From positions 40,387 to 91,000 of the forward strand of contig JAKMXF010000049.1 in NCBI GenBank assembly GCA_024704765.1: DNA of 50,614 nucleotides, read 5' to 3'. The stretch's first letter is position 1, and each line of letters opens with the position of its first letter. Made by a program: the position numbers and the translations under genes. The notes below the pieces were generated by a model. That model saw only the letters and a list, made by a program, of their open reading frames with translations, did not search any database and was not told the origin of the DNA. Of the stretch, positions 5,963 through 50,614 are shown piece after piece. The stretch comes from Oopsacas minuta (Eukaryota > Animalia > Porifera).

Positions 5963-8900
5963 TTACCAACATTTGTACCTGATTACTTCATTATTTATGG
6001 CGAAGATTATCTAACTATCACGAATAAAGTAGAACAATTATATCTTGTCGAAAAGAAAGATGCTCTTGCCCTTTTCTTCAATACAGAACCAGTAAGTAAT
6101 TGTAATAGTTCCTAGTCAGGGTTACAAGGGAATATCTTCAAATATCTTAAAGTCTGGGAACAGATTCCTTAGCAAGAAATTTCTTCACCAGTGTGTTTAT
6201 AAGGGTGTCTACTAAATCTCAAAAAATTTGAATGCAACTCCCGTAGGGGAACCTAACCAAATTCTATAAACTGGAAATTGTCACCTGTGTCTCTCTCGAA
6301 ATTATTCATAAGGGATAATTAACAGGCTATTAAGACTGAAGATTTTCTGATCACTTTTCAGTGATTACAAATATCACAATAAACCTTAGCATAGCCTACT
6401 TTATGAAATTAGGTTCGATTTAAAGAGGAAAGGAGTTTATGCATTTTAACGTGTTCAAATATTCCTGGTGGTTGTGGATACCTATTTTCAGCAACTGTCA
6501 TCGGGTACCCTATGGGAGTTGAATTTAAACTTATTGAAACATGTTAGTGAACACTCTTCAGGCGCGGTACGTCCCTTCAAAAATGCTACGACGAGAAATT
6601 GACAGTACAGTACAAACCGGTTTTTAATGCAGCTCCTATAGGGAGATGCCGTGATGGTATAGACAATGTGCCACGTCCGTCAGTCCGTCTGCGTTGCCCT
6701 GAGACATCTGATGCATTGCTGCATCAACACGTGCCCCTGAAAAGAGCAAAAATACATAACCCTGAGCTGCACTTCCAGTTTGTCGGCTGGACATTTTTTT
6801 TACTATTTCTCTACACGGAAAAAACGAAATAATTACAATTGTACGGCGCTCTACGCACCAGCCATACCGGGTATGCTGCCCCTGCCCATATAAACACGTA
6901 GGTGAGGAAATTTCTTGCTAACGAATTTGTTCTCAGACTTTAGCTGTTTATTCACATTCCCTAACTATCCAAAGATATTTCATGTAAAGGTTTACCTATA
7001 CTATTGCTGCGTTTAAATAATCTTCTCATACTGGGGAACCAAAAACCTTTTCAAGTATTCTGAATCCTCATTGACCGGAATGTAGCCAGAGATATGGGAC
7101 AAATCTGACTACACCTCTGCTCATTGAGGACATTGACCAGATTAGATTATCATTTAAGAGTGTCTTAACTTTAAGATTGGAGCATCCTCCTCATATTCAC
7201 TGTAATACAATAGATGTCTTATATGCAAGCCAAGCACAGCAAAAATATATTTTGGGAGTAGCTGTGTGACTGTATACAATTCGTGTTATATTTCCTCCCT
7301 TTTATCCTTTCAAGCTTTAGGTCAGAAAAATGAACTGAACGTCTAAACCGTGTGTTATTTAACATATATACACGGACATTCTATGATATATAATATCGTT
7401 TTTGTTGCATTATTTCAATTATCTGCTTTAATATCAAATACATTTTCTTTAGGAAAAAGCATTGAAATCATTTGAATATGTATTATATTCAATATTTCAA
7501 GAAGTTATCAAATACTTCATGGTACTTCACGATGAAATGAGCATTGAGCAGGTAATGTTAGTTGACTAATTCATTAATGATAGTACTTACTTGTACAAGT
7601 ATAAAATCGTGAAAACTAATGCCTTTGTCGTCAAATTTGCCTATTTTCGGAATCATTTTGGTTTAGATTTGAAATACTCTTTTCTCGAGCTGCATTAGCT
7701 AACAAGCAAGCTTCGGATTGTGCACACTTTGTGCACAAACCGCGGCGCAATAAATTAAAAATAATAATAAGTTTATACATCTCGACCAGAGTTGGAATCG
7801 TGTTTACTTTTCAGATCCCGACCCGAGTTCGAATCTCAACACGAACTGACTGAACCAGGGACGTAGGGAGCAAAGGTTATTGGTGCGCCTTGCCACTCCA
7901 GCTCCTACGGACTTGTGACTCCGAACCCTACCCGAAGACATCTCCCTATAGGAGCTATACTATAAAATGTTCAGCTGACAGACTGGAGTCAGCTCGGATA
8001 TCTGGGTCATGTTTTCACCGAATGAATAATGATTAGTCGTTAGAAAAAATTGTCACTATCATTTAAATATGAGCCTAATGGAGTGAAAATGCGATTAATC
8101 ATATGATAAAATATGTAGAAGTAGTTGTTAAAATATCAAAATTTGAATCTGCATACTTGGTTACCCCTGACTAACAGTCGAAATGAAGTTTCTAACATCA
8201 AAATATATTTTATGTTAGAAAGATTTAACAAATGATTAATCATATGAGAAATCTGTCGATTTTTAACTTTCAGACTATGAAAATGTCAAATTCGGACTCT
8301 ACGCACCCAATTACCCCCGACAATATGTTGAAACCTAATCTCTAGCATGTCTTTGAATGTATATGTGTACCAATTGTCATGTGAATCCGACTGCTAGATT
8401 TTGCACGTCACACATCGTCCATGTCATAAGCGGATCTCCTTAAGGAACTGCGCTAAATCATTGGGTTTTAATCAAGGTTGCAACCGAATAATATATGGCG
8501 AATTGTTCAATATTCGGTTTCCAACCGAATATCAGTATTAAGTATTCGGTCAGGCTGCTTTTCATGAATACTGATATTCGGTTCTATCAGTTTCAACCTT
8601 GGTTAATTGTATATACAAGATGTAGCCAGGGACTTTTCTGGAAATAATTTGATAATTGCATCATTTCTGAGTTATTGGATTCAGTAATACTATGTCGGTA
8701 GGGAAATGATTTCATCTTGTTTCTAGAAATTCTGCACTCTGATTGATTTTGTTAACAATGATTTTGCTATGATAAATCAAGAGCTAAAGAACCTTACCAA
8801 TCAAATAGCGACGAACAACTTGGGAGATGGCATTCTGCCCAATCTCATTCTAAATGATCGTTGCAGAAACAATGAATTATTCCTAATCAGACTAATCTAC

Positions 8901-11900
8901 CATGTAGCTGTTATGCTATCTTATAAGAAATATCACCAGCTGTTCCTACCTATTGCTTTAATTTATGAAAAACCTGAGATATTAAATGATAAGTTATTTC
9001 CTACTATGATGGATGATCAGTTTCTATTTACAAAGAATGCTATGACTGAAGGTGGGAAATGGTATGAATGTCCTAATGGTCATCCCTACTTCATTGGAGA
9101 TGTAAGTTTAGAGTAAACTATTCGTGTAATAAAGAGATATATTAATCAATATTAATAAATCTCTAAATTTCCGGAATAGTTTTTACTCTAACGTCACTTT
9201 CAAATTTCAAATTTCGACCACTGTTCCTATACAATTGCCCTATCCATCAATTGTATTCTGGATTTATTCATATTTTGTATCTAGTGTGGGAGACCTTGGG
9301 TGGTTTCTAAATGTAGAGAGTGTGGCTCCCAAGTTGGTGGGAGTAGGCATAAATTAGATGGTAAGAATAAACTCCTCGATGTAGCTAGAAATGAAACTAA
9401 AACAGGATACTTCATTGGAAAAATGAACCATGCTACAACCGTTCTTGCAGGGGAAAGGTAATTTGTGTCTGAAATCAAATCAAGGAATTGATTATTATTA
9501 TTATCTATAGGTTACTTGGCCCTGCATCAGTTAAGATAATCCGTGTATTGATTGACATCTCTTTCATCTGGTCATCTTGTTCTAAATACCCAACAGTTAG
9601 TAGCCATGTGCTTCCTTCTCTTGTGACAAAAGGATTAGATGACCCCAGAGATCTTCCTAACTTCTTCTATTTGCATCTAGAGAGAGATATTATGGATCTG
9701 GTAAAGCTAACTGGCAAGAACTTTGGTGAAGTTGTATTTTACCTCCATCTGATAATCAAATCCCTGATGGAGACATCTGAACAAACATGTGAGTAGTAGT
9801 ATTCTATATCAGCTGATCCAGCGTTCTGAGTTCTAACAATATTTTTTAGAATTAAGGGTTTATGGTTCCCTCAGTATAGAGTAGGCCGAAATTATTAGCT
9901 TAATTAAAAGTCCCGGACTGTATTAATGATTGACGTTTTTGATGGAGTATACTTTATCCTAGTTAACGAGCTTTTGGCTCGTCGCTTCGTGATGAATTCG
10001 GTGCTTTGCGCCTCGAGATAACCATTAATATCCTAATTGATTCATATTACATATATAAGTATATTATATCACGAAATCAACAGTAAATTTACATATGAGA
10101 AACTTAAAATACGAAATTCGGATTTAGCGTACTCTTTTACCACTATTTAACCTTTGCAAGCAAGTCTCTATGTATATCTTGAGATTTGGCTCATCTTTTT
10201 ACTACAGTAAAACCAGTCTTTTATACCAAAAGAAAAGTCGTTAATGACAGGTGGTCCTTGATCACAGCTTTGGAATAGCTATTCGTTTAATATCTATATC
10301 AGTCTCAATCTTTTTGAACGTGGAACACAAAAATTCAAAATTCGGTAAATCTTTGATTTTATTGTGCAGTCGTGATTACGCAATAATTTAATGGTCACTT
10401 TGACCAAATGCTAACTCATTTGGTCAAAGTGACGACGTCAGGACATGTGACATATTATGGGGAACCTGTGATTCAAATTCCAAACTTCTATCAGGTATAT
10501 TGGCTGAGCTGTGGTTAATAATGTGATCATTCAAAACCAAAAAGGTGAGAATGACCTTGTCCGAGCCAGGTCCATAATCAGCCCTGGGTGTCTTCCAGCT
10601 TCTCCAATCAATTCTGAACATATATATATATATATATATATATACTAGCGCGCTTCGCTTGCTAAATCGCTGCGACAGCTTAGTGCTACAGGTTAGCTTA
10701 AGTATTCATTAAAGAGCTAAAAAGTGTTATTGGATAATTTTGTATAATACGTTATACATGATCAATTTTGACGTATTATAAGTCTAGGATAACCTGGAAA
10801 TATGAGATTTAACATTGTTAGACTTGTATAAGTCAATTATTATTAAATATTATATAATTTAGTCAACTTATGCTGAGAATTCTCATTAAAAATTATAGAA
10901 CTACTGTTATGATTTATTGCAGAATCAGACTAATAGAAATTACGTCACCAAAATTGTAGATTGAACGTATAACACGAATTATAGTAATACATCTTCATTG
11001 AAAGATGTATTAAAAAAATAATCTGCACTACGTGCCTCGAATTCACAGAATAGGTAATTTTAAGATTTTATTATCCATGATCCATCCAAATTACATTGAC
11101 AGTGTCACCACTTCTGTGGTGACACTGGAGATGCTATGTCACTTTTGTTTAGTAATCTCGGCACTTCGTGCCTAGAATTCCAAATTTCAAAATATACATA
11201 CAGGCTTGCTCTAAACGGCCACAAAGGGTTTATTCTTACAAAATAATTTAATAACATATATGCCATATACGTATATTTGTGAATGATATTGTTCTAAATA
11301 TATCTAGAGTATAGTACTCAAAGGGGCCGTCAATTAGGAGAAGAATGGATACTTCGAGGCGCAATGCGCCGAGTTCATCGCGAAGCGACGAGCCGAAGGC
11401 TCGTTTAATGTAAATCTAAAGTATGAAAAGGAGTCGGAGTCCGCTCCTATTCTGAGTAAGAAGCGGAGGTGAGAGCGCCGCTCCCTTTCAGGGCAAGAGC
11501 TCGGAGCAAGAGCGCTCCAAATAATGAGAAGCGCTTTATGATCTGTACATGTGTTTGTATGTCCAGAATTGATTGAAGAAACTGGTAGACCCCCAGGGCT
11601 GATTTTTGGCATATGAGGCATGAATATATAAATTGGGATTACAGGCAAACATATCTGGTTCTATACACTAGAAACTTTCCAAGATATTTATAGCTTCTCT
11701 TCTACAGGCGATATTAATACTGAATTAACACAGTACGAGTTGAGAGAGCAGTGGGAGAGAGAATTTGATAAGAAATTCATTCAACCTATACTCACCTCTC
11801 TAAACACAGATGTACAGAAACAGATGGAACAGGTGCTGAGTGAAAAGGGGATAGCTAACAATCCTTTACTCAGGTTAATACAGAGATTAGTATATTAGTT

Positions 11901-14900
11901 GAATTATCTATGAATTGTCTTAAATCTTTAGAATTGTATACGAGAGAGATGAACCTGAATCAAACAGCCCGTTACCTCATCTATGGCGCTACAGAACTAT
12001 TGTGAGTCTGGAGCATTTCTCTCAGAGCTTCAGTACAGCTGATTTAAATACCAAAAACAAGTGTCCGTTAGTAGACAAGTTCCTGAAAGAAGAAAACAAA
12101 TTATTCGTGACTCGTTATTTATCAGACATTGTACAGCTACAGAGACGAGTAGGAGATAAGTTCCTACACAGATTGGATAAGAGAGAAGCTGCTAATACTT
12201 CTATTAAAGATTTCTTAGATAGAATGAAAACTGGTAAATAGTTTATAGTTATACTCTATTCTCTTTTTTGAGATGAGTTTGCCATTTTGAATTTTATTCT
12301 TAGAGAACAAACAAGAATCAGAAGAATTAGCTAGACTAGTGAAGAGTCTTGCTACAGCATGGAGTATAATTGGAGAAGATGTGAAGAAGAATGGACGTCT
12401 CAAAATGGAAGAAGCTCTAGAACAACAAGAAATAACTTATGCTACTTCTCTAGCCTACCTGCTCCCCTCCTCAACAGGAGATGGAGTGCTGATCACCTCA
12501 CTCACTGACTATCTAGTGCTGATACACAACTCATTTGTACACGCCTACAGAGACAGAGTGAAGGGGTATGCATCATTCTATTAAATGATATGTCTATAGA
12601 CATGTCTCATATCATTCTTATTGTATTAGGTCCCGTAGTGACAAGATACCACTCCGTGAATTGAATATGAGTCATATGATTGAGTATGTGGAACATCTGC
12701 AGCCTCTACTGCTGTCACAAGCTCACTACTCACTAGCTCTCGGACAAGGAAGTCAGGTGACATATGATTTTGAGGGAGTAGAACAGCAATTAATGGAACA
12801 ATTCATTCAGAACAAACCTCTTATTCTAGCAGAACATCTCCGCTTTGAATATATTCGTGAGGCTTATAACCTGGGTGTGTTTGAGCAGGTGCGACACAAA
12901 GTTCAACAGGTGAGTAACTCTTTAAAAGGAATATCTTCAGTGTTCTTTCTGTCAAACACTAATATATTTGGTTATTAATCAATATTATCTCATTATTAGA
13001 CTGAACTGAATAAAATAGTATGGAGTGCAATACGGAAAGATATGGACTCTCTTGAAGCAGTTACTGATGTTCTCCTACTACTAGATGTAGTGATTGGATT
13101 CTTATCATCAGCAGGAGGAGATCCAGAACAGAAATTGTCTTCTTATCTTTATGATGTTCTAAAATACTCTTACACGTCAGAAGGAGCTGGTCCTCTACAG
13201 AGCAGAAGAGTATGTATAATTGTACATTATCTGTAATATGTATACAATTATAGTAAACTCTCATTATAAAGAAGCTCCCAGGACATCTGTTTCATTTCGT
13301 TATAAACCCAATTACATACATTCAAGCAATCACTTTGATATAACCGAAGAAGATTACTGTCTGTCTTTATATTTGTACTAATATACTTACCTATTTTATT
13401 GAAGGTATAAATACTTGGCAACTTCTTACTTCCTTCCTTCCACGTGGCAATTTGAATTTCTGAGTTCTAGTTGTATTAATTTGGGGATATAGATGTGTAC
13501 CCATTGTCTATTGTCTAGAATGTGCTATTTCCACCACTTCTCAGTTCTCACAGTTATTACAATTAATTATACAACGGTTTTGTTTACTAATATTTACATT
13601 TATTCTTTCTTTCTACAGGCAGAGAGTGCATTGCGTTTGAAACATATACTGAGCTTTTGGGAATTTATGTCAATAGAGAAAGCTCGTAAACTTTGTCTCC
13701 ATGGTCAGGTGAGTACCAGGTGTATTTGGTTGACATCTATTTATCCAGCACACATCTTGTAATTACTGATTAGAGTATTACTAGATCACCAAAAATTACT
13801 GTGAAGATTTAGAATATAATATTCTAACGTCAAAATTTCCTATTATAATTCAAAATAAATATAGAATTTGTTATCGAGTTTGAGGAATATCGATTCTACT
13901 GTCCCAATTGCCTCTATATATTGGGACATTTTGAAATCGCCAAATTATCACTTGCTCAGATTGTAACCTTTTTCCAATATAGATTACCTACTCTTCTCTG
14001 AAAGATGAGTTTCAGGAAGTTGTGAGTGAGGAGGAGAAACAACAAATAATACGAAGTTGTAACCACTTTCCAGTAGAGAAAATTTTGGTATTTCTTCATG
14101 ATTTTATTCTCTTCTTTGTGCGAGAGAGAGATGCTGTAGAGAAGGACTTTGGGTGAGGACGCGAACAATATATAAAAGACCATAGCCTACTAAATATAAG
14201 GCCTAACAGTAAAAGTACCAGGGATGAAGTATTAGCTGAAAGCATTTATATACATGGTCTTTTTATTGTAGAAAAGATACATTTTTGCCTGAATAAATAT
14301 TTTGCAGATTTGTAGGACATCAAATTTTATACAGAAAATGGTAAAAACTTTTAGAAATGTATAAAAATATGTGGCTAGTAAGCATTTATTTAGCAAAATA
14401 TGTTATTCTTTGATGCCTTGTAGAACGTTAAATATTGCATTTATCAACTCAAAGTGAATAAATGAAATGATCTATGGATCCTTTTATACAAAATGTCAAA
14501 AGTTTGTTATTCAAAAGTTGGCTCGTTGTTGAGTTAAGGTAGAGACCATGGATGACAAGTTTTTATGAATATTCAATTATAACTCGAGAATCATTACAAT
14601 TATCGTAAATCAGGATAGTCAATTTATACAATTTAGCCGACTTCCCATACCCTTGTAATACATTTTGATAGGAAATAATTGAAGAGTATTGCAGAATATT
14701 GAAAATGACCATATATGGGCATCGTCACATTGGTGTGAGAGATATCATATCAAAATGTATTGCAAGGGTATGGGAAGTTGGGTAAATAGTATAAATTGCC
14801 TATCCTGATTTTATGATCATGTAAATGATTCTCGAGTTATAATTGAATATTCATAAAAACTTGTCATCCATGGTCTCTACCTTAACTCAACAACGAGCCA

Positions 14901-27102: not shown

Positions 27103-27957
27103 TCAAAAAATATGGAGACAATGCTGTTCATCTCCTTCACAAGCGACAATAACTCTTCCTTGATTATCTACTGTAACACCATTAGGCTCAGTTATAGATA
27201 TCTTGTGAATCAATTTGTAATGAGAACTGAAAATATAAATAGACTGAGAAGTATAATCTGAAATAATAATATTATTAGACCTGTCAATACAGAAGAAATA
27301 CGGATATGTCACATCTAATCCAGCTCCTAGAGAGATAATATTCTTCTGTAGAATGTGATTGTAATTGTACAGATGAAGACAAGGATTCATAGAATCAAGA
27401 ATGAAAATGAATTCTTTTGAAAGTTTAACATCTCGAGGGAATTTGAGGTTATCTTGCCCAAACTGTGATTTGAACCTAAGTTCTCTGGAAACGATCTGAA
27501 TACGATTATTGTAGCAATCACATATGTATACCTCTCCATTAGACTCATCAAATGTCAGACCACGAGGATGAAAAAATTCTAATTCTCCTTTCCCAAATTT
27601 TCCTATTCTAGAAACAAACTTCCCATTACCTTGATAATTCATAATATAGTGGGTTTCTACTGAAATTAGAATTCTATCTCTACATATAGCTACCCCTATT
27701 GGACGTTCCATCTTTCCTTCTCCTTCCTCATCTCCAAACTTGAACAAAATCTTACCATAATTATCGAATACTTTCACACAATAATTCTCTCTATCTGCTA
27801 CATAGATATCTTCTGTACTATTATCAATAGTCAATCCTTCTGCTCTATTAAGATTTTCTAGCCCCTTACCGAATTTACATGCACTGACTATTGGTTGTAT
27901 CTTGTCCTTATAGACTACTACAGAGAAGACTCTTTCTAAAGGATTATCTGTAGCCAT
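27103..27957 (-). CDS. NHL-repeat beta-propeller protein (TRIM2/3/71-type NHL module only), 284 aa
   Basis: Repeated NHL units: GLTIDNSTEDIYVAD..CVKVFD, RPIGVAI, HPRGLTFDESNGEVYICDCYNNRIQI, FPRDVKL, EPNGVTVDNQGRVIV. No RING or B-box is seen. Confidence 0.9.
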   Translation of the reverse strand: MATDNPLERVFSVVVYKDKIQPIVSACKFGKGLENLNRAEGLTIDNSTEDIYVADRENYCVKVFDNYGKILFKFGDEEGEGKMERPIGVAICRDRILISVETHYIMNYQGNGKFVSRIGKFGKGELEFFHPRGLTFDESNGEVYICDCYNNRIQIVSRELRFKSQFGQDNLKFPRDVKLSKEFIFILDSMNPCLHLYNYNHILQKNIISLGAGLDVTYPYFFCIDRSNNIIISDYTSQSIYIFSSHYKLIHKISITEPNGVTVDNQGRVIVACEGDEQHCLHIF

Positions 27958-38555: not shown

Positions 38556-41500
38556 ATGGCTAGAAGGTTGGAACGGCCTCCTGACCTAGAACTTTTGCCA
38601 GTAAATCGGAGTGAATTAAAACGTACTCTATCAAGTTTGAATCTTGGAGACGAAAAAACAGAATTCATCCTGGAACACGGCGAAAAGTTTATTGATAAAC
38701 CCGAACTATTATCAGTAAGGTTGGAGATTACACTTGATACGGCAGAAGAAATAACGGAAGCTCTAAAGATATCCAGGCAAGTAAACACTAGTGGATTAAC
38801 CAAAGAGATGGCTAATGAAATTGATAGATGTTCGAAAATGAATGTTGTTAAAAGCCCATTAGATATTGCATTACTTCTCGATCTTGATGAGGGTATCGTC
38901 ACTGCTTACCTAAACTCTAAGAGCCTAAACGATCGACAAAAAAGAGCTATCAATGAAAAATATAGAAAGGGTTATTCCATTCGTGACATCGTAGATCAAT
39001 TGAAATTACCACACAGAAAAGTTTTGGAATATGTGGAAGGTACCTATTTAGAATTCACTGGAAGAGAAGGTCGAAAGGTTTTGGAATTAATACTTAAAAA
39101 TTCCCAAGAGGTCACAGTTGAAAGAATAAGAGAGAAGATAATATGTAAAGATCTGAAACTGCAAGATCAGTTAATGTGTGTTTTGAAGCAGAAGAATGAA
39201 AGTGAATATACACAGATAATTACATACTTACACAAGTTTAGTGAATCGAGAAACTTTAGCAATGTTGATACACATTTATCCTTGGATGATATATTTTTCA
39301 TCAATCAAAGTGTTCTAAGTATCAATTTACTCAGCATACAATTGAATAAAGTGGAGACAGTCATAAGAAACTTTGTACAGCGATATGCTCCACTTGAAAT
39401 TGAGGAGAATGGATATAAAAATTTGCAATTGGTTAAAGTTGCAGAAATTGCACATAATTTTGGCACAGACACAAAAACATTTCACACGTATAGAATGATT
39501 GTTACAGATTCGATTGAATCCATGATACAATCAGCAAAATCCATCAAAAGCCAGAATATTATTCACAAACCTAAAGAAATTTTTAAAAAACTTTTACCTT
39601 TGACATTTTACTACCTAAAGTGCAGCCTACCTTTCGAAGATATTACTAGGATAATTGCTGAAACTTGCCAAATCACATTCACTACTCATGATGTATTCCA
39701 TATAATTTTCCAACTTTCTGATCCAGTTTTGAGAGGCTTTTGCGTTGAACATTATTCATTCAGTAATCCCGTCCCTCTGTATTACCCAAAACTCGACGCC
39801 TCGATTAACAAACAACGAACAGAATGCAAGTTTGAAATATGCAGTGAATTATGGTACTCAATTCAAGAGTACGATGGTTTGATTTCATTCGGTTTAGGCC
39901 GAGCTGGTTGGGATCCTTTTGGGAAGTCACATTTATTAGATATGATCTTTGAAACAGATTTCGCCAAAGGAAATCCTCGAAACAGCGCATTCCATAAGAA
40001 TTCCATAGATATTCAAATGACAAATAATCTATTTGCGGCTGTAGGGGACAGTTCTTCATACGAGTCTACCAAATGGGCCTATATTGATTGTAACGGATAT
40101 GCAGACATGCGTGTTGTACATGCTATTTGTGAACATCTGGAAATTGCAATAATTCATGTAAGCCATTTTGATTTTACACGATATAGACCACAAATCATGA
40201 TGGATATAAACAAATTTAAATATGTTAAACATTTATACATATTTGTTAGAGATTGTGAAAAATATGAGGTACAAGTTGATGAGAAAAAATCCTGTATTTT
40301 CATTCCAAATTTAGTTCAAAATGATAAAACTCTCTTCTACTCTTCTTTGAAAAAGATTGGCTATGAAATATTACACTTGAAACCTAAAAAGAAGATTGGA
40401 AGGGAAATGATAGAGTCTTTAATAGGGAAGTTCAAAGCTCCTAGCTTGAAAGAAATACAATCAGACTACGAGCACATTCAGACAATGATGAGTAATATCA
40501 TGCAGAATAAGAAATCTGAAACTCTAGATTTTTCCTTCTTAAACTACTACCCATTATTTATAGTGTACATGGAATTATACTATCTAGCATCAAATGAAAC
40601 GAAGCGCGAAATGATTATTAAGCATGATAAAAATCGTGTCATTTTCAAAGAACACTTGGATAAGATGGAAATAGGCAACATTGTTCATTGTTTTAACGAA
40701 ATATTGGAAAGAAAGAATTCTATACTGATATTATGGAAATTATCACGAGAACTCTCCGTGCTCACTAACAAGATTACTCGCAGTAATGAGGGACGAAAAG
40801 TTGTTAAGCTTAAAAACGACAAATACAACCTTGAAATTCTGTGGAGAGAGGCTCTACTGTCTAGTAAATTTGGTAAGGACTGTCAAATTCGAAAGAACTT
40901 TGGAGAAAAATTTTCACTAAATTTCAGCAATTACGTGGAGAGAGGTGAGGTATTTGAGTTAATTGACGGTGACAATCTAAGATATTTTAATCAAGATATC
41001 AATGCTCTACTAGCAAACTTATACAGGAAACAGATTAAAACTCTGAAAAATACTCCTAAGAACAAAATTGAAATGAGACAGGCTCCAATTGTAGTCAGCA
41101 TATTTGGGCCGCAAAGCTCTGGAAAATCTACTTTATTGAATTATTGCTTTGGTTGTAAGTTTCTAACAAGTGCAGGCAGATGCACAAGAGGGATATACGC
41201 TTCTCTCTCTCAACTGAGTCAACCTGTCAACTGTACGGAACAGTTCCTAATTCTCGATACAGAAGGATTGGATGCGAGTGAAAAGAGAGATTCTCTAAAA
41301 CACTTCGACAGAACAATGGTATTATTCTGCCTCGCTGTTTCTCAAGTTGTAATCATAAACTTGAAAACAGATATAGGCGAAGTGATGCAAAATCTCTTAC
41401 AAATATGCGCGTATTCTCTTCACAAACTCAAAGTAAGCAAGGTAGTAGCCCCTAAAGTATTCTTTGTTCTCAATCAACAAGCGGATCCTGATCCTGAAAA

Positions 41501-44500
41501 ACATCTCGGAGCAATTAACATTCTATTAGAAAAACTCAACACAGAATCAGACTTAATGATGACAGAAGGAATAAAGATTTCAGATTTAATACAAGTTTCA
41601 AGGAAAAACTTATTCATTTTGCCTTCAGCTTTTAACTCGCAACAAATAAACAGGCCAGCTGCAAATCTGTTTGATTCAGAAGTAATCAAACACTCGCCAA
41701 CTCAAACATTTGCAAAGGCATGTGAAAAATTACGACTTTCTATAATCAACCAATTGATTAGTATGCCACAAGATGAAAGAGCACCCTTCAAAACGATGAG
41801 TGAGTGGGTGGAGATGTCTGGAGTTATCTGGGAAATAATTGTTAAATATCAGGACATAGTAAAGCATAAAAATGTTGAAGAAATGATGTGTCACAACAGA
41901 TTGGGCATGATAGTAACCGATCTAATTAAGAAACACATATCTGATCATCATAACGAATTTGATAAGAGCGCAGACCAAATCATTACAGACATTAAAAATA
42001 TTGATAAACCATTCCATAAAACGTTTGTTCTAGATGAGAAGATGGAAATATTCGACGACTTGTATTGTGAGCACCAGGAGGAGTGTTACAATGAATATAG
42101 AAAAATATGTCAATCTGACGCTTTACTGTGTAACATGTATCATATTTGTGAAGAAGTTAAATCAAATCTCTCACGATTACTGTACATAGAGAGAAAATAT
42201 TATCAAGATAAAATTCAATTCCAGATCAAAGCCTGTTGGGCTGAACTCAATCGCTCCCACCTCATGGGTAATTTTCAAATCGCGATAAATGAAAATCTAG
42301 ATGATAATTTAGAACTTAATGAAAAGGAACAGCAAAAAGCATTTGAAGAAACTTGGTTAAGATGCTTCGGAGATGAAGACTTGAAAGAAGAAAGGACCGA
42401 GCGAGACGAAGATTTTGATAATCTGTATTCTATATTTAAGATGGAGTCAAAGATGATGGAAAACAAACAAACAATTTTTAAGCTTTTAAGTAGTTCGAAT
42501 TTTGAGATGGATAAAGTGATACAGTCCCTTCGAATGGAGATGCTAATGAATTTCGAAAATTATGTAGAATCGTTCTCTGCAGAAGAAAATTATTTCTTTC
42601 CATGGAAAGAAAACATTCTACCAATGAAAGATATGGTCCCTTTTACTGGAAGAGATTACTGTGAATATCTAAAAGAAGATTCACTTTACACATCAGCCAA
42701 AAAGAACCTTTTTGGCACTCAAACAATACTAACTATCAATCATTGGATTCCTAAGGAATGCCATGATCTTATTCAGTGTTGTTCAGGTTATTCTAATCAT
42801 GCAGACATAACCTGGAAAACGGAAGAAAGGAAACAAATACTTTTGTTAGCTTCTGTCTTGAAAGATCCAGATAATCCTAGAGTTAGCACTTGGTCAAAGT
42901 TACTTCACAATATATCTTCAACCGTTGAGAGTCTACTTAAGCGAGATCCACATATCCCTAAAGGTACTGTTAGGGAATTAATGAATTATTTGAGTACTAC
43001 CTTCAAACATGTCAATTATGAAATTAATTACATACAAGCAAAGTTGACTAACAAGGCAGAGATGACAATAACTACTTTTGTCTTTGCATACGCCTTCAAA
43101 CATTTGTGGGAAACGAAGATGAAGAGAAGGAACCAGTACAATTTGGAAAAAGAACGAGAAAAATCAAAACTTCTTGATTATTTCTTTCAAAAAGTCAAAA
43201 GCAGAACACTGGCTAGAGGAAATTGGGATAGAAAGGAAATGAGGAAGATTGATCAAAGGATTGCTAACAAATTTTCTTTAGACTTCTTAGAAAGGGTTAA
43301 GCGAGGAGTGATGACTGATGGAAAACAATTTATTGAAAATAAACTAATGCAACGAAAGGACGACTTATCACACAAGGCTCTATTTCTGTTAATTGACGAA
43401 TTAATAACAAAAGAACTCAATTTAAATCCTGGAGTGGAAGTTTTGAATCAGAATAACATCGTTATTCAGTTTACTTGTAATCGCAATGAGTTAATCAAGA
43501 AAATATTTCATTCTCGATGGGATGAGATTTTGGCACAAGTATATGATGAATTGGTTGACTATATGAAAAGTACTTTCTTAGAGCAATTAAAATTGATTAA
43601 AGCTGCGATTGCAAACTTCTTGGAGAATATTTTATCAATCAATTCTGAAGGAATAGCATTCGATTCAGACACCAACTTTGAGTTAGCCGATAGAGAAACT
43701 TATGAGGAGCATATTTCTGAGCCCAAACTAAGAGAGAGTCCATTGAAAGCCAATGCGCTTTATCTTGAGATGTATTTCAATCCGAATGTGACTCCGGAAG
43801 AATTCAAAACTTTCTTCCAAGATACTTTCGAAGTGAATGGTATCAAAATGTTGAAGAGACAAAGATATTGGAGTTTATGCGATAAGCCAGAGGATCTAAA
43901 CATCAGACTAGATAAATACACTTTCAAGAAATTACAATATACCAAAATGTTCAACTCAGAAAACATTTATAATGCCTACAGCTACATGAGAGAATTTCTA
44001 TCTACTTTAAACTGCTACGAATACGAGATGACTATGAATGAATTTCGAAAGATAGTGAGATACTTAGAAGATGAGTATGAGGCACTGATCGTTAGTTGTC
44101 CAGCTAAATGCCCCAGCTGTGGAAAACTTTGTGAGAGGGAACTTCACATGCACGGTGAGAAATGTCAGATAAAAACAGGTCATCAAATTTGTTCAATGGG
44201 TGGGAAGGTTTGGAGAATTGATGAAGATAAAACTGCAGTATTAATTACTTGCGATGATTACCGAGAATCTACTGAAGTTAAGATACCAGGTAAGAATATG
44301 AAATGGAGTGTTTTCAAAGAGCAAACTGGAAATGAATGGGATTGGACTAAAGTTCAATCAGATGAAGACTACAGAACCCTACAAGAAAATAACCGTGAAA
44401 AAATGATGAGGATTTGGAACAAATTTGGGAGAGGAATATTAAATTATCACGCAAAAACGGGAACCAAAATTACCTACATTCCATATGTATCTTTTGAAAA

Positions 44501-45176
44501 AGTATTGAAAACAGTTGGAATATTCGATTTTCGTATTTGTTTCGTTATTGATGGAACTGGATCAATGGCCAATGATATTGATAGGGCCAGAATCTCGGTT
44601 GGACAATTAATTAGTAAATATAAAAAAGGTCATAAATCTGTGTTTGCGATAGTGATTTATCGTGATCATTGTGATGGTGAAGATCTAATAGAGATGTTCC
44701 CAGTCGATTCTAGATTTACGATAAACCACCAGAGTGTACAAAATTTTCTTGAAGGCGTAAAGGTATTTGGTGGAGGAGATGGTCCAGAGGCAGTGTTGGA
44801 TGGACTAGCTATGGCAATCAACAAATTTACCCACTCAGATAACATATGGCTCAGAAATATGATCATTCACATCTTCGACTCTCCCCCACATGGGGATTTC
44901 CCCAATTATAAATCACATAGCGCTGGCAGTGATAAACAAAACTGTTGTTGCTGTAACAAAGGTGGGTTGTGTGAATTTGAATGGGAAAGCGATGTCTGGG
45001 ATACTATACGAGAGTTGAAAATTGAGTATAATGGGATAAATACAGGAAGTGAATTCCCTGAGTTCACAGAAACAATGAAAGAACATTTAGAAGAAAATTT
45101 CGGATCTATACAGACGGTGGAGAAACACATGGTTAACGATGCCGTTTACCAGATCTTCATTGACTACGAAGCTTGA
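38556..45176 (+). CDS. Very large inducible GTPase (VLIG/GVIN/URGCP)-like protein with a C-terminal vWA domain, 2206 aa, intronless
   Basis: G1 SIFGPQSSGKSTLLNYCFG, G2 SAGRCTRG, G3 LILDTEGL, FDRTMVLFCLA and FFVLNQ. An upstream degenerate P-loop-like segment LISFGLGRAG..GKSHLLDMIF. Cys/His cluster CPAKCPSCGKLC..H..C..GH. vWA: CFVIDGTGSM, YRDHCD, GGGDGPEAVLDGL, IFDSPPHG. Confidence 0.9.
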   Translation: MARRLERPPDLELLPVNRSELKRTLSSLNLGDEKTEFILEHGEKFIDKPELLSVRLEITLDTAEEITEALKISRQVNTSGLTKEMANEIDRCSKMNVVKSPLDIALLLDLDEGIVTAYLNSKSLNDRQKRAINEKYRKGYSIRDIVDQLKLPHRKVLEYVEGTYLEFTGREGRKVLELILKNSQEVTVERIREKIICKDLKLQDQLMCVLKQKNESEYTQIITYLHKFSESRNFSNVDTHLSLDDIFFINQSVLSINLLSIQLNKVETVIRNFVQRYAPLEIEENGYKNLQLVKVAEIAHNFGTDTKTFHTYRMIVTDSIESMIQSAKSIKSQNIIHKPKEIFKKLLPLTFYYLKCSLPFEDITRIIAETCQITFTTHDVFHIIFQLSDPVLRGFCVEHYSFSNPVPLYYPKLDASINKQRTECKFEICSELWYSIQEYDGLISFGLGRAGWDPFGKSHLLDMIFETDFAKGNPRNSAFHKNSIDIQMTNNLFAAVGDSSSYESTKWAYIDCNGYADMRVVHAICEHLEIAIIHVSHFDFTRYRPQIMMDINKFKYVKHLYIFVRDCEKYEVQVDEKKSCIFIPNLVQNDKTLFYSSLKKIGYEILHLKPKKKIGREMIESLIGKFKAPSLKEIQSDYEHIQTMMSNIMQNKKSETLDFSFLNYYPLFIVYMELYYLASNETKREMIIKHDKNRVIFKEHLDKMEIGNIVHCFNEILERKNSILILWKLSRELSVLTNKITRSNEGRKVVKLKNDKYNLEILWREALLSSKFGKDCQIRKNFGEKFSLNFSNYVERGEVFELIDGDNLRYFNQDINALLANLYRKQIKTLKNTPKNKIEMRQAPIVVSIFGPQSSGKSTLLNYCFGCKFLTSAGRCTRGIYASLSQLSQPVNCTEQFLILDTEGLDASEKRDSLKHFDRTMVLFCLAVSQVVIINLKTDIGEVMQNLLQICAYSLHKLKVSKVVAPKVFFVLNQQADPDPEKHLGAINILLEKLNTESDLMMTEGIKISDLIQVSRKNLFILPSAFNSQQINRPAANLFDSEVIKHSPTQTFAKACEKLRLSIINQLISMPQDERAPFKTMSEWVEMSGVIWEIIVKYQDIVKHKNVEEMMCHNRLGMIVTDLIKKHISDHHNEFDKSADQIITDIKNIDKPFHKTFVLDEKMEIFDDLYCEHQEECYNEYRKICQSDALLCNMYHICEEVKSNLSRLLYIERKYYQDKIQFQIKACWAELNRSHLMGNFQIAINENLDDNLELNEKEQQKAFEETWLRCFGDEDLKEERTERDEDFDNLYSIFKMESKMMENKQTIFKLLSSSNFEMDKVIQSLRMEMLMNFENYVESFSAEENYFFPWKENILPMKDMVPFTGRDYCEYLKEDSLYTSAKKNLFGTQTILTINHWIPKECHDLIQCCSGYSNHADITWKTEERKQILLLASVLKDPDNPRVSTWSKLLHNISSTVESLLKRDPHIPKGTVRELMNYLSTTFKHVNYEINYIQAKLTNKAEMTITTFVFAYAFKHLWETKMKRRNQYNLEKEREKSKLLDYFFQKVKSRTLARGNWDRKEMRKIDQRIANKFSLDFLERVKRGVMTDGKQFIENKLMQRKDDLSHKALFLLIDELITKELNLNPGVEVLNQNNIVIQFTCNRNELIKKIFHSRWDEILAQVYDELVDYMKSTFLEQLKLIKAAIANFLENILSINSEGIAFDSDTNFELADRETYEEHISEPKLRESPLKANALYLEMYFNPNVTPEEFKTFFQDTFEVNGIKMLKRQRYWSLCDKPEDLNIRLDKYTFKKLQYTKMFNSENIYNAYSYMREFLSTLNCYEYEMTMNEFRKIVRYLEDEYEALIVSCPAKCPSCGKLCERELHMHGEKCQIKTGHQICSMGGKVWRIDEDKTAVLITCDDYRESTEVKIPGKNMKWSVFKEQTGNEWDWTKVQSDEDYRTLQENNREKMMRIWNKFGRGILNYHAKTGTKITYIPYVSFEKVLKTVGIFDFRICFVIDGTGSMANDIDRARISVGQLISKYKKGHKSVFAIVIYRDHCDGEDLIEMFPVDSRFTINHQSVQNFLEGVKVFGGGDGPEAVLDGLAMAINKFTHSDNIWLRNMIIHIFDSPPHGDFPNYKSHSAGSDKQNCCCCNKGGLCEFEWESDVWDTIRELKIEYNGINTGSEFPEFTETMKEHLEENFGSIQTVEKHMVNDAVYQIFIDYEA

Positions 45177-47369: not shown

Positions 47370-47662
47370 CTAATGTTTCACCCAAACTTGTCAAAAACCT
47401 TGGGGTAGCTGAACATGAATTGAGCAGGTTTAGTTTATGCTATCGGTCTGGACCGGTCCATGAAATTCCCGGACCACTGCCACACTGATTCAACGGTTTT
47501 ACGGGGTAATCGAGTACGCTGATTCCGAATTTCGCACAATATACTAATGTTTAAATAATATACAGTCCTTTTTTGAAAAAATTAGGGGCACAAAGTGCCA
47601 AAAGAGTTACATGAGAACAGAGAGTGTTAGCAAGCCGCGCATCGGACATGCGAAACGGCTCG

Positions 47663-49729
47663 TCAATAATAATCTTCATATTCATAATGGCATTCATTGG
47701 AATAATATCCGTATTCATCATAATCCTGGCTATCATCTTCAGAATCAGAACTAGTTTCAGTTCCAGTTTCAGTGTCAGATTCTGAAACACTCTCCAAAAT
47801 AGTCTCTACAGACACTGCTCCCTTTGGTATCCAATCCACAAACAAAACCTCTTGATAAGCAGCTGCATAATTTTCCTATAATAATACAAGAAATTATTGG
47901 TAGATACTTAAGTATATATAGAATCAATCTGTAATATTAAATCTTCATTTAGTATTGTATAGGGAGATGGAATGGACGGTGTGCTACGTCCGTGCGAGTC
48001 TAGCAGTCGAATTAACATGAAAATTAGCATACATATAAATTTTGGGTCGGAGATTTTCACCTCGGGTATGAATAGTTTCTAAAGTGAATATTTCACACCT
48101 TTTTGGTGATTAATCATATATTCACACCTTTCTATGTAAAATACAAAAGCGAGCTAGAGATTAGGTTTCAACATGTTGTCAGGGGTATTGGGTGCGAAGA
48201 GTTCGATTTTGAGAATTCAGATAAATTCACAGATTTATCATATGATTAATCATATTTCATACCCTTGCATATAATTCAAAATGATGCTAGAAATTTCGTC
48301 TCAACTAAGTAAGCTAAATCCGAATTTCGCATACATGTTCAAGTTTATCATGTTTGTAAATAAAAAATTCATTTTACGTTTATGTCGGTGAGATTTTTGT
48401 AGACTTTTTAGTGTGTTGAAAGGTCACATTCCAAATTAGTGAAAAGTCACTTTTATTCTTAGGGGATAGGATTTTTTAATAGAAAATACTCGCCAACATA
48501 TAAATAAACAGATGTAAATTCATTGGTGTTTTTCAATATACAAAAGTAAACAAAGTATTAAAATCAGAAAGATACAGAGAGATTTACCCTCAACGGCTAT
48601 ATAGGGATAACCAAGTACGCTGAATCCGAATTTCGCATTTACCAGTTACTCATATGTAATATTCTTGTTGATTTTATGAATACTAGCGCGCTATAATAGA
48701 TATTTATGATTTGATTAAGACTAATTTGGTATATTTCATGTCAGAATTGAATATGAATTTGTAGACTGTATATTTGTGTACTGTTGGCCCAGTCATTTCC
48801 AGGAAATAGTTTCTAGCAAGTCCCCAATTTGTTGAAGAGTTTTTTATCAATCTACATATTTTGACAAGGAGTATTTTGATATTTTGCATGAAAATTGTCT
48901 TCGATTCCATTGAATAAATTATGCAATCGTAAAGGGATGGTCTTTTCTGACAAACACTGGGACCTGTAGTTCCATGTATGGGACATTGGCACCAAAGAAA
49001 AGCAACCTAAGAGTCACCATACGAAAAGCGCAGTTACCTCTATGTAAACTTACCGTCTCCTCCTTTTTACCTGGGGGTCTATCCCCCAGATATTCAAAAT
49101 AAGCGCCTATGTAAGGGGGTGCTGAGGTTGGAAAAGGTTAAGAAACGTTGCATTAGTGCATCTCCCTATCGGAGATGCACTAATAATCTGTAAAAGGAGC
49201 AGGCGAAGCTAGGATGAAAATCTTGTAGATTTAATAACATGTAGATGCTCTATCTACTGTTTTTGTAATTCCAATATTACAACGGGATACATAAATGCCG
49301 AATGAAATAATTAACAATTTAAACATTCACAATTACCTGTTTTTCACTGGTTAGATAATGATCTATATTGCATTGTAGAGTCAGGTCACAAGCTTCATAG
49401 TATACATTTGGATAATACTTTTTGAGATACTTAATGTCTATTTTGACAATTACAGTGCGTTCGTTGCCATATATTTCAGAAGTTTTCTGGTCAGCTGTAG
49501 CAGCCCAATCAATAGCACATTCCAAATCGGTTGTAGTAGAAATGAATCTTGATGGATTGGTTAAACCACTGGCTATATGCTGGTTTATAGTCCTCTTAGA
49601 ATGAGGAGCAACACAGAATAGATCCTGCTGGAAATCCTCATTAGGACGTAACGCACGATATAAATAGCGTTGTTTGAGTTCTGAGAGTCCATTGATGGGT
49701 CCATCAGAATTGTGATTATAAGATGCCAT
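47663..49729 (-). CDS. Putative R-S-E (cholera/pertussis toxin-class) ADP-ribosyltransferase-like protein with an acidic tail, 201 aa, 2 exons
   Basis: Exon 1 is 49337-49729 (131 codons, donor CAG|gtaatt). Exon 2 is 47663-47875 (acceptor tattattatag|GAA, phase 0, 70 codons plus stop). The joined protein has YLYRALRPNED (R), SRFISTTTD (S-T-T) and NYAAAYQEVLFVDWIP (E), then a Ser/Asp/Glu/Tyr-rich tail. Confidence 0.8.

Positions 49730-50517: not shown

Positions 50518-50614
<97 letters not shown>
50518..50614. repeat. (TAC)n microsatellite, about 32 units, running off the window end
   Basis: Perfect trinucleotide run. Confidence 0.98.

What the first reader, a model, noticed from the sequence alone, without database searches (positions are those of the whole stretch)
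47663..49729. Hidden spliced toxin-like ADP-ribosyltransferase: the catalytic Glu lies in a second exon 1.46 kb away
The ORF track shows two unrelated-looking pieces. A phase-0 GT-AG intron (47876-49336) joins them into a 201-aa protein with the full R-S-E triad: YLYRALRPNED, SRFISTTTD and YAAAYQEVLFVDWIP. The spacing and flanking motifs (H..SG...S.FISTT, IVKIDI, DLT, EVL...IP) recall, from memory, the ART toxin tips of bacterial Rhs/polymorphic toxins more than the secreted or GPI-anchored animal ARTC enzymes. There is no signal peptide, so it would be cytosolic. The strongly acidic tail (SESDTETGTETSSDSEDDSQDYDEY..YEYEDYY) could act as a nucleic-acid-mimicking or auto-inhibitory segment. The intron shows it is a resident eukaryotic gene, possibly a domesticated bacterial toxin.
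Basis: partly seen in the sequence, partly recalled or inferred. Interest (0 to 1): 0.85.

Follow-up and report, generated by a model that had tools for sequence, protein, structure and literature searches.

The report
Sponge gene resembling bacterial RNA-modifying toxin
A glass-sponge gene, split by one intron, encodes a protein with the predicted fold and the catalytic residues of a bacterial toxin that tags RNA with ADP-ribose; it likely serves as an intracellular defence enzyme, and related genes occur in clams, oysters and corals.

Summary
A phase-0 GT-AG intron (47876-49336) joins two exons into a 201-aa protein identical to the NCBI model LOD99_10649 of Oopsacas minuta. One public run, kind unrecorded but RNA-like, carries the junction. 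The predicted fold is a cholera-toxin-class ADP-ribosyltransferase (Scabin Z 10.5), and R25, S64 and E140 are kept in 172 of 181 related domains. The family is Pfam DUF7587. Its only clear solved relative by sequence is the Rhs tip RhsF/TreThr (9ZDM, E 5e-16), an antibacterial toxin that ADP-ribosylates tRNA. It is no sponge one-off: relatives occur in bivalves, a coral, viruses and dozens of unnamed proteins, and the tree does not resolve origin or direction. The acidic tail is private to this copy within its clade (1 of 20). Activity is untested; this copy is less basic than its relatives. Animal ARTs of toxin origin are known (pierisin, CARP-1). Verdict: new member of a known kind, with a testable RNA-target lead.

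The parts
49337..49729 (-). Exon 1, residues 1-131: N-terminal three quarters of the ART domain
47876..49336 (-). Phase-0 GT-AG intron, 1461 nt, holding multi-copy repeat pieces
   Evidence: junction letters in run X4 and repeat-level depth in intron bins
47663..47875 (-). Exon 2, residues 132-201 and stop: catalytic strand, last strand and acidic tail
49655..49657 (-). Arg25, first residue of the R-S-E triad (RhsF R1403, Scabin R77)
   Evidence: invariant in 74 of 74 rows of A1
49538..49540 (-). Ser64 of the STT motif (RhsF S1445, Scabin S117)
49505..49507 (-). Trp75, eleven residues after the Ser; same spacing as RhsF Y1456 and Scabin W128, both needed for activity in those enzymes
   Evidence: W in 48 of 49 close rows, aromatic in 29 of 30 bacterial rows; equivalence inferred from spacing
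47849..47857 (-). Tyr138-Gln139-Glu140: catalytic Glu in a Y-x-E motif rather than Q/E-x-E
47666..47797 (-). Acidic Ser/Thr/Tyr-rich tail, residues 158-201, net charge -16, low-confidence in the model
47547..47662 (-). Likely 3' untranslated region
   Evidence: X4 contig 47547-47753 at depth 441; inferred

Best explanation
This is a spliced gene of the glass sponge Oopsacas minuta whose product has the predicted fold and the conserved catalytic residues of a mono-ADP-ribosyltransferase of the RhsF/TreThr (DUF7587) family, and it likely works in the cytosol as a defence enzyme that transfers ADP-ribose from NAD+ to a nucleic acid, most probably RNA. Shown: gene structure, family membership by sequence, conservation of R25, S64, W75 and E140. 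Predicted: the fold. Inferred: NAD+ is bound by R25 and the STT strand, E140 drives loss of nicotinamide, and W75 helps to place cofactor or acceptor, as in Scabin and RhsF. Inferred more weakly: the acceptor is tRNA or another RNA, so that modification would stall translation in an infected or damaged cell or in an engulfed microbe. The acidic tail may damp activity but is a private feature of this copy.
For: AlphaFold2 with 74 sequences: mean pLDDT 85.7, residues 11-160 mostly above 90. Structural search of 48,161 chains: Scabin Z 10.5 (rmsd 2.7, 113 aligned), EcPltA 10.1, pertussis S1 9.9, TreX 9.6, Tpt1 9.5, all ART folds; RhsF-CT's own best structural matches were ScARP and EcPltA. Family profiles match PDB 9ZDM_B at E 5e-16 (A1), 1.3e-5 (31 close relatives only) and 1.5e-12 (9 bacterial-type tips); no other chain reaches E 0.001. 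[quoted passage not shown] R, S and E are all present in 46 of 49 close, 30 of 30 bacterial and 96 of 102 other domains. Close clade against bacterial tips: HH probability 99.7, E 5e-26. Bacterial relatives are C-terminal tips followed by a related acidic gene of about 100 aa in 14 of 17 loci by my script's simple rule. Defence role: many diverged relatives with variable tails and a very large GTPase gene and an RZ-finger gene in the same window; this is circumstantial.
Against: No activity was measured. P0003 alone does not find 9ZDM (no ART among 16 hits up to E 10); the link needs a profile. Substrates vary within this branch of the fold: TreX modifies FtsZ, EcPltA and pertussis toxin modify G proteins, Scabin modifies DNA. 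Nucleic-acid ARTs have basic clefts, whereas this domain has net charge -4, the lowest of its 49 close relatives (shared with two others; median +3), and lacks the basic residue at 8 of 15 positions that are mostly basic in the family; no surface map could be computed. In HMMER's alignment one gap puts W75 against the residue before Y1456. A cytosolic RNA-modifying enzyme would need control, and none is identified.
Confidence: 0.5

Rival explanations
1. It is a CARP-1-type enzyme that ADP-ribosylates guanine in DNA, as in clams.
For: PMC12945103 says CARP-1 has Y at the position two before the catalytic Glu, has two long helices beside the cleft, and has homologues in bivalves, cnidarians and sponges. 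P0003 has Y138 there (45 of 49 close rows), helices 69-87 and 129-138, and named relatives in Ruditapes, Mercenaria, Mactra, Pinctada and Orbicella. CARP-1 also lacks a receptor-binding domain (PMC11209040). Scabin is the top structural match.
Against: The Oopsacas protein in that paper's CARP-1 branch is KAI6650727.1, not KAI6659794.1. CARP-1 did not appear by name among 47 profile hits (a word-limited search). The W-x-x-Q-x-E guanine-reading loop of ScARP, Scabin and pierisin is absent. CARP-1's cleft is described as strongly basic; this domain is acidic overall. The CARP-1 sequence could not be obtained, so kinship is untested.
Confidence: 0.2
2. It is an active ART with a protein acceptor, or mainly an NAD+ glycohydrolase.
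For: EcPltA, pertussis S1 and TreX, all protein-modifying, score within 1 Z unit of Scabin. The domain is acidic and has lost family-typical basic positions. Ten of 49 close relatives end in a hydrophobic, often Cys-rich tail that suggests membrane anchoring, which suits membrane-protein targets.
Against: No E-x-E (arginine acceptor) or Q-x-E motif. The one characterised sequence relative acts on RNA.
Confidence: 0.22
3. It is a decaying or catalytically weak copy from a fast-turnover family.
For: Atypical charge and a private tail. Of the 8 codons with differences listed for run X4, 5 change the residue (48 further rows were not shown).
Against: Open frame, clean splice sites, all four key residues intact, none of them among the listed differences, and a spliced form present in X4. 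A 62% identical relative (P0004) shares the N-terminus and appears to stop aligning at the same junction.
Confidence: 0.08

Closest known systems
RhsF-CT / TreThr of Chromobacterium violaceum (PDB 9ZDM; PMC13324451, PMC13617354)
   Same: Only solved structure matched by the family profile below E 0.001. Same R, S, S+11 aromatic and E by spacing; same F/Y-A-x-x-x-x-E run before the Glu instead of a W-x-x-Q-x-E loop; same structural neighbours.
   Different: RhsF is the tip of a T6SS-delivered Rhs protein with an immunity gene and a basic pocket. This is a stand-alone, intron-split animal gene with a longer helix after the STT strand, W for Y, Y-x-E for D-x-E, an acidic domain and an acidic tail. 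No detectable pairwise match.
CARP-1 of the clam Meretrix lamarckii (BAF03560.1)
   Same: Small animal R-S-E ART without receptor domain; Y two residues before the Glu; similar range of phyla.
   Different: Sequence not available here, so homology untested; a different Oopsacas protein is its listed homologue; CARP-1 is described as strongly basic.
Scabin / ScARP / pierisin family
   Same: Best structural match (Z 10.5); R, STT, S+11 Trp, E; weak profile hits at E 0.2-1. Pierisin-1 has an auto-inhibitory linker behind the domain (PMC8883491).
   Different: No W-x-x-Q-x-E loop, no signal peptide, no ricin domains; 19% identity.
Tox-ART-RSE of polymorphic toxin systems (Zhang et al. 2012, PMC3482391)
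   Same: R, S, E toxin tips with RHS or HINT domains, already noted in fungi, insects, molluscs and plants.
   Different: That family's RxDxR and [DN]xN motifs are not seen here (RxLR instead); sponges are not listed there.
Pfam DUF7587 (PF24494)
   Same: 39.6 bits against a cut-off of 27; clusters in Ascomycota, Mollusca and Rhs tips.
   Different: Listed as unknown function; 0 papers in the searched library hold the term.

Membership tests
Cholera-toxin-like (R-S-E) ADP-ribosyltransferases | Split beta-sheet ART core | tested here: met
   Predicted model pLDDT 85.7; all 8 chains with Z at least 8 are ART folds; Foldseek best hits pertussis S1 and EcPltA, E 3e-4
Cholera-toxin-like (R-S-E) ADP-ribosyltransferases | Arg on strand 1, Ser on strand 2, Glu on strand 5 | tested here: met
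   R25 in strand 22-26, S64 in 62-66, E140 in 140-144; the only invariant columns of 74 rows
Cholera-toxin-like (R-S-E) ADP-ribosyltransferases | NAD+ cleavage and ADP-ribose transfer | not testable with these tools
   needs an assay
DUF7587 (PF24494) | Score above the gathering cut-off | tested here: met
   39.6 bits against 27, E 7.4e-10
RhsF/TreThr-type ART | Sequence homology to RhsF-CT | tested here: met
   profile E 5e-16 and 1.3e-5; not seen with the single sequence
RhsF/TreThr-type ART | R-Y-E triad (aromatic at Ser+11) | tested here: inconclusive
   W75 by spacing, but W not Y, and one residue off in HMMER's gapped alignment; 9ZDM was not among the structural hits, so no superposition
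RhsF/TreThr-type ART | Basic pocket; RNA or tRNA acceptor | not testable with these tools
   only a proxy: net domain charge -4, 8 of 15 family-basic positions not basic
Rhs / polymorphic toxin system | N-terminal delivery and repeat region, adjacent immunity gene | tested here: not met
   201-aa stand-alone protein; no long frame upstream to the window end and none of 80 aa or more resembling an immunity gene downstream
Pierisin/Scabin guanine ARTs | W-x-x-Q-x-E acceptor loop | tested here: not met
   A-x-x-Y-x-E here against Table 2 of PMC11281641
CARP-1 group | Y two residues before the catalytic Glu | tested here: met
   Y138; feature from the Fig. 2 legend of PMC12945103
CARP-1 group | Sequence homology to BAF03560.1 | not tested
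   sequence not obtainable by any search; not named among 47 hits
Animal ecto-ARTs (ARTC1-5) | Signal peptide, GPI anchor, E-x-E motif | tested here: not met
   no hydrophobic N- or C-terminal stretch, Y-x-E, and only DUF7587 in the Pfam scan up to E 10; the features of ARTC1-5 are recalled

The most novel reading that the evidence does not exclude
Sponges, bivalves and corals carry an expanded, so far unnamed family of enzymes descended from tRNA-targeting Rhs toxins, and use base ADP-ribosylation of tRNA or other RNA as an innate-immune translation shut-off; cytosolic, tail-anchored and secreted forms exist, and large DNA viruses carry the same domain and may have moved it.
Probability: 0.25. 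Interest if true: 0.8.

Novelty: new member of a known kind. Interest (0 to 1): 0.52.

Why it matters
It assigns a fold and a catalytic site to a domain of unknown function and ties animal members to a bacterial toxin whose target, the tRNA anticodon, was published only in 2026. The known animal enzymes of this class (pierisin, CARP-1) modify DNA. If this family modifies RNA, early-branching animals would have a toxin-derived translation-arrest defence, testable with one biotin-NAD+ assay. If it proves to be the CARP-1 family, it would give CARP-1 its bacterial relatives and a solved template.

Tried and rejected
Single-sequence fold: pLDDT 33.9, not used. Single-sequence PDB search: chance hits only. 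Word-based searches with the single protein found only itself (1 of 1 and 1 of 41 candidates). No RNA holder listed among 4 runs. No whole genome is held, so paralogues in Oopsacas were not counted; none lies in the window. Phage collection: no match; plasmids: one Bartonella RHS protein, E 2e-5. Viral structure library: nothing below E 0.001. Viral scan with P0090: nothing. Metagenome scan with the close clade gave 2 loci, the one read being a bacterial-type Rhs gene, so relatives' intron structure could not be read. Complex prediction of domain, NAD and tail: no verdict, score 0.00, alignment not used. The candidate immunity family matched no PDB chain below E 0.04 and no Pfam family in more than 1 of 10 members. 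Quick tree was beaten by a constrained search and replaced by the careful tree. A second Atlas search did not complete. Two papers were not held (PMC6126934, PMC1564245). Literature searches for DUF7587 (0 papers), CARP-1 residues and sponge ARTs (25 of 832 listed, none with the ART term) gave nothing on this gene. Three look-ups of earlier findings were blank. Vertebrate ecto-ARTs and 9ZDM are absent from the shown structural hits; that is no evidence either way. Rejected: a recent transfer into this sponge alone, because the nearest 48 domains and then clam proteins stand between it and any bacterial row; a mis-joined gene, because.

Full report
1. Observation. On the minus strand an ATG at 49729 opens 131 codons that end at a GT (49336); an AG at 47877-47876 precedes 70 codons and a stop at 47663. 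The join is supported apart from that annotation. The uninterrupted relative P0005 aligns 4-121 on exon 1 and 122-147 on exon 2, and of 37 AG sites followed by 20 or more open codons only 47875 supplies profile positions 105-128. Across the 49 close domains the junction region aligns without a break, except in three that are cut short or lack the segment. Four public runs hold the stretch, one sample, none on record as RNA. In X1-X3 depth is flat over exons and single-copy intron, and X1 contigs run straight through both splice sites. In X4 summed depth is 976-1973 on exon bins and 11-25 on non-repeat intron bins, and two contigs cross from one exon into 17 and 10 letters of the other. I infer that X4 is RNA and that the gene is transcribed and spliced. 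The flanks are short, and contig depth is no measure of expression level.

2. What the protein is. Pfam gives DUF7587 only (39.6 bits, cut-off 27). The HMMER search of 1.84 billion representatives gave 119 hits at E 0.001 or better, self included. With loci I had 194 sequences; 181 domains covered at least 80% of the profile and 18 sequences were dropped. R25, S64 and E140 are the only invariant columns of a 74-row alignment and are all present in 172 of the 181 domains. AlphaFold2 on that alignment gives pLDDT 85.7, with the three residues on strands 22-26, 62-66 and 140-144 and a low-confidence tail. The best structural matches are Scabin (Z 10.5), EcPltA (10.1), pertussis S1 (9.9), TreX (9.6) and Tpt1 (9.5), tied within the method's resolution. 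The fold is therefore of the cholera-toxin class; a shared fold does not give the substrate.

3. Closest characterised relative. Family profiles match one PDB chain clearly, 9ZDM_B (E 5e-16, 1.3e-5 and 1.5e-12 for the broad, close and bacterial-type alignments). 9ZDM is RhsF-CT of Chromobacterium violaceum. PMC13324451 (passages and section 7 read) shows RNA ADP-ribosylation in vitro and loss of toxicity for R1403, Y1456 and E1497 mutants. PMC13617354 (abstract, section 16, first part of the discussion) maps the target to the anticodon of charged tRNA-Thr(GGU). Counting along the printed chain, its R, S, Y and E lie at offsets 0, 42, 53 and 94, as published, and correspond to R25, S64, W75 (Ser+11) and E140. 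Scabin has W128 at Ser+11, needed for both its activities (PMC7828395 passages). This position is W in 48 of 49 close domains and W, Y or F in 99 of 102 of the remaining non-bacterial ones. The equivalence rests on spacing; HMMER's gap puts W75 one residue earlier. Like RhsF and unlike Scabin, the protein has an Ala and no Gln in the loop before the Glu; it reads Y-x-E.

4. The CARP-1 question. PMC12945103 (passages, section 7, supplement text; figures not seen) states that CARP-1 has Y at that position, two long helices beside the cleft, and homologues in bivalves, cnidarians and sponges. That fits this family well. But the Oopsacas protein it lists is KAI6650727.1, another record, and I could not fetch CARP-1. 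The relation is open.

5. Distribution and origin. I looked up names for 30 of the 119 hits, and named more: Ruditapes, Mercenaria, Mactra, Pinctada, Orbicella, E. coli, Flavobacterium and Tenacibaculum. The Atlas adds clusters in Ascomycota. The nine closest relatives looked up are unnamed records on contigs of 15 kb to 1.3 Mb; that they are sponge genes is my inference. Bacterial relatives are C-terminal tips of Rhs or HINT proteins followed by a related acidic gene of about 100 aa. In the careful tree (107 rows after removing near-duplicates, 130 columns, 9ZDM not included) P0003 lies in a 20-row clade (100/97), next to a 14-row clade with clam proteins (94/83, not starred); deeper nodes are weak. 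Holding its clade with bacterial and viral rows is not rejected (p 0.79, quick tree), nor is holding all 80 non-bacterial, non-viral rows together (p 0.41). P0003 is 22-37% identical to the bacterial-type rows and 27-34% to the named animal rows that I compared. A bacterial origin of the family is likely from its toxin-tip context and from precedent (PMC3482391 passages), but number, date and direction of transfers are not resolved.

6. The tail. Residues 158-201 carry net charge -16. An acidic patch near the domain occurs in 1 of 20 rows of its clade (itself), 2 of 14 in the clam clade, 0 of 22 bacterial, 0 of 5 viral and 6 of 46 other rows, those six forming one clade; background in distal tails is 1 of 80 windows. 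So the feature recurs elsewhere but is not inherited within the clade. Pierisin-1 offers a precedent for an auto-inhibitory linker (PMC8883491 passages). Relatives have tails of 1 to 847 residues, and 10 of 49 end in a hydrophobic stretch.

7. Mechanism. Most likely: NAD+ binds across the split sheet through R25 and the STT strand; E140 promotes loss of nicotinamide; W75 and the helix ending in Y138 shape the acceptor site; ADP-ribose goes to a nucleic acid, RNA being the best guess from the only characterised kin. I put NAD+ turnover at about 0.8 and a nucleic-acid acceptor, given activity, at about 0.7; within that I favour RNA over DNA, while allowing that the enzyme may take both. Against this stand the acidic domain and the loss of 8 of 15 family-basic positions. 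A defence role is inferred from the toxin kinship, the many diverged copies and the neighbours, a 2206-aa URGCP-type GTPase gene 2.5 kb away and an RZ-finger gene; their immune roles in other animals are recalled, not tested.

8. Novelty. The gene model is public but unnamed. No paper in the searched library holds 'DUF7587', and the main text of the Oopsacas genome paper (PMC10280926, passages; supplements not seen) has no 'ADP-ribos', 'toxin' or 'horizontal'. Animal ARTs of this class are known (pierisin, CARP-1; PMC11209040, PMC11281641, PMC11606950 and PMC9503650, passages only), and sponge CARP-1 homologues are already listed. Two key papers could not be read and subscription journals were not searched. 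What appears new is the link between animal DUF7587 proteins and the tRNA-modifying RhsF, and the size of the clade around this gene. I file it as a new member of a known kind, interest 0.52.

Noticed in passing
window 38556-45176 (+): Single open frame of 2206 aa with URGCP/RHD3-type GTPase and C-terminal vWA domains, tail to tail with the ART gene; its 3' end has exon-like depth in run X4.
   Followed up: partly
window 8727-9116 (+) and 12589-12978 (+): RZ-type zinc finger and a further exon; looks like the end of an RNF213-like gene (label recalled).
   Followed up: no
window 27103-27957 (-): Single-frame NHL-repeat protein.
   Followed up: no
proteins P0090 and P0098: P0090 has two copies of the ART domain fused to an adenovirus-type protease (Peptidase_C5), which suggests a Polinton-like element (label recalled); P0098 groups with it (100/98).
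   Followed up: partly
L018:2914-3942 and L019:2935-3690: Stand-alone homologues with R, S and E in a giant-virus genome bin and in another viral contig with giant-virus-like neighbours.
   Followed up: partly
L001-L016 and L020, gene behind the toxin tip: A family of acidic proteins of about 100 aa, candidate immunity proteins, with no Pfam family and no PDB match.
   Followed up: partly
proteins P0005, P0006, P0012, P0022, P0025 and others: Ten of 49 close relatives end in a hydrophobic, often Cys-rich tail, like a tail anchor.
   Followed up: partly
proteins P0155, P0121, P0150-P0160; P0056/P0126: A clade with the coral Orbicella has N-terminal hydrophobic leaders and Cys-rich regions, so probably secreted forms; P0056 has ricin-type lectin domains before the ART domain.
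   Followed up: no
window 47547-49629, run X4: X4 contigs differ from the window (25 letters in 618 of the intron; 9 listed coding letters in 8 codons, 5 of them changing the residue): a divergent allele or a close paralogue.
   Followed up: partly
protein P0004: 62% identical relative with the same N-terminus whose predicted sequence stops aligning exactly at the exon junction, as if the same intron had been read through.
   Followed up: partly
residues 14-15 (window 49685-49690): A Gly plus hydrophobic pair shortly before the catalytic Arg in 20 of 20 rows of the clade, 10 of 14 of the clam clade, 10 of 22 bacterial and 4 of 46 other rows; it may mark common descent of the first two clades.
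   Followed up: partly
window 50518-50614: Perfect (TAC)32 microsatellite running off the window end.
   Followed up: no
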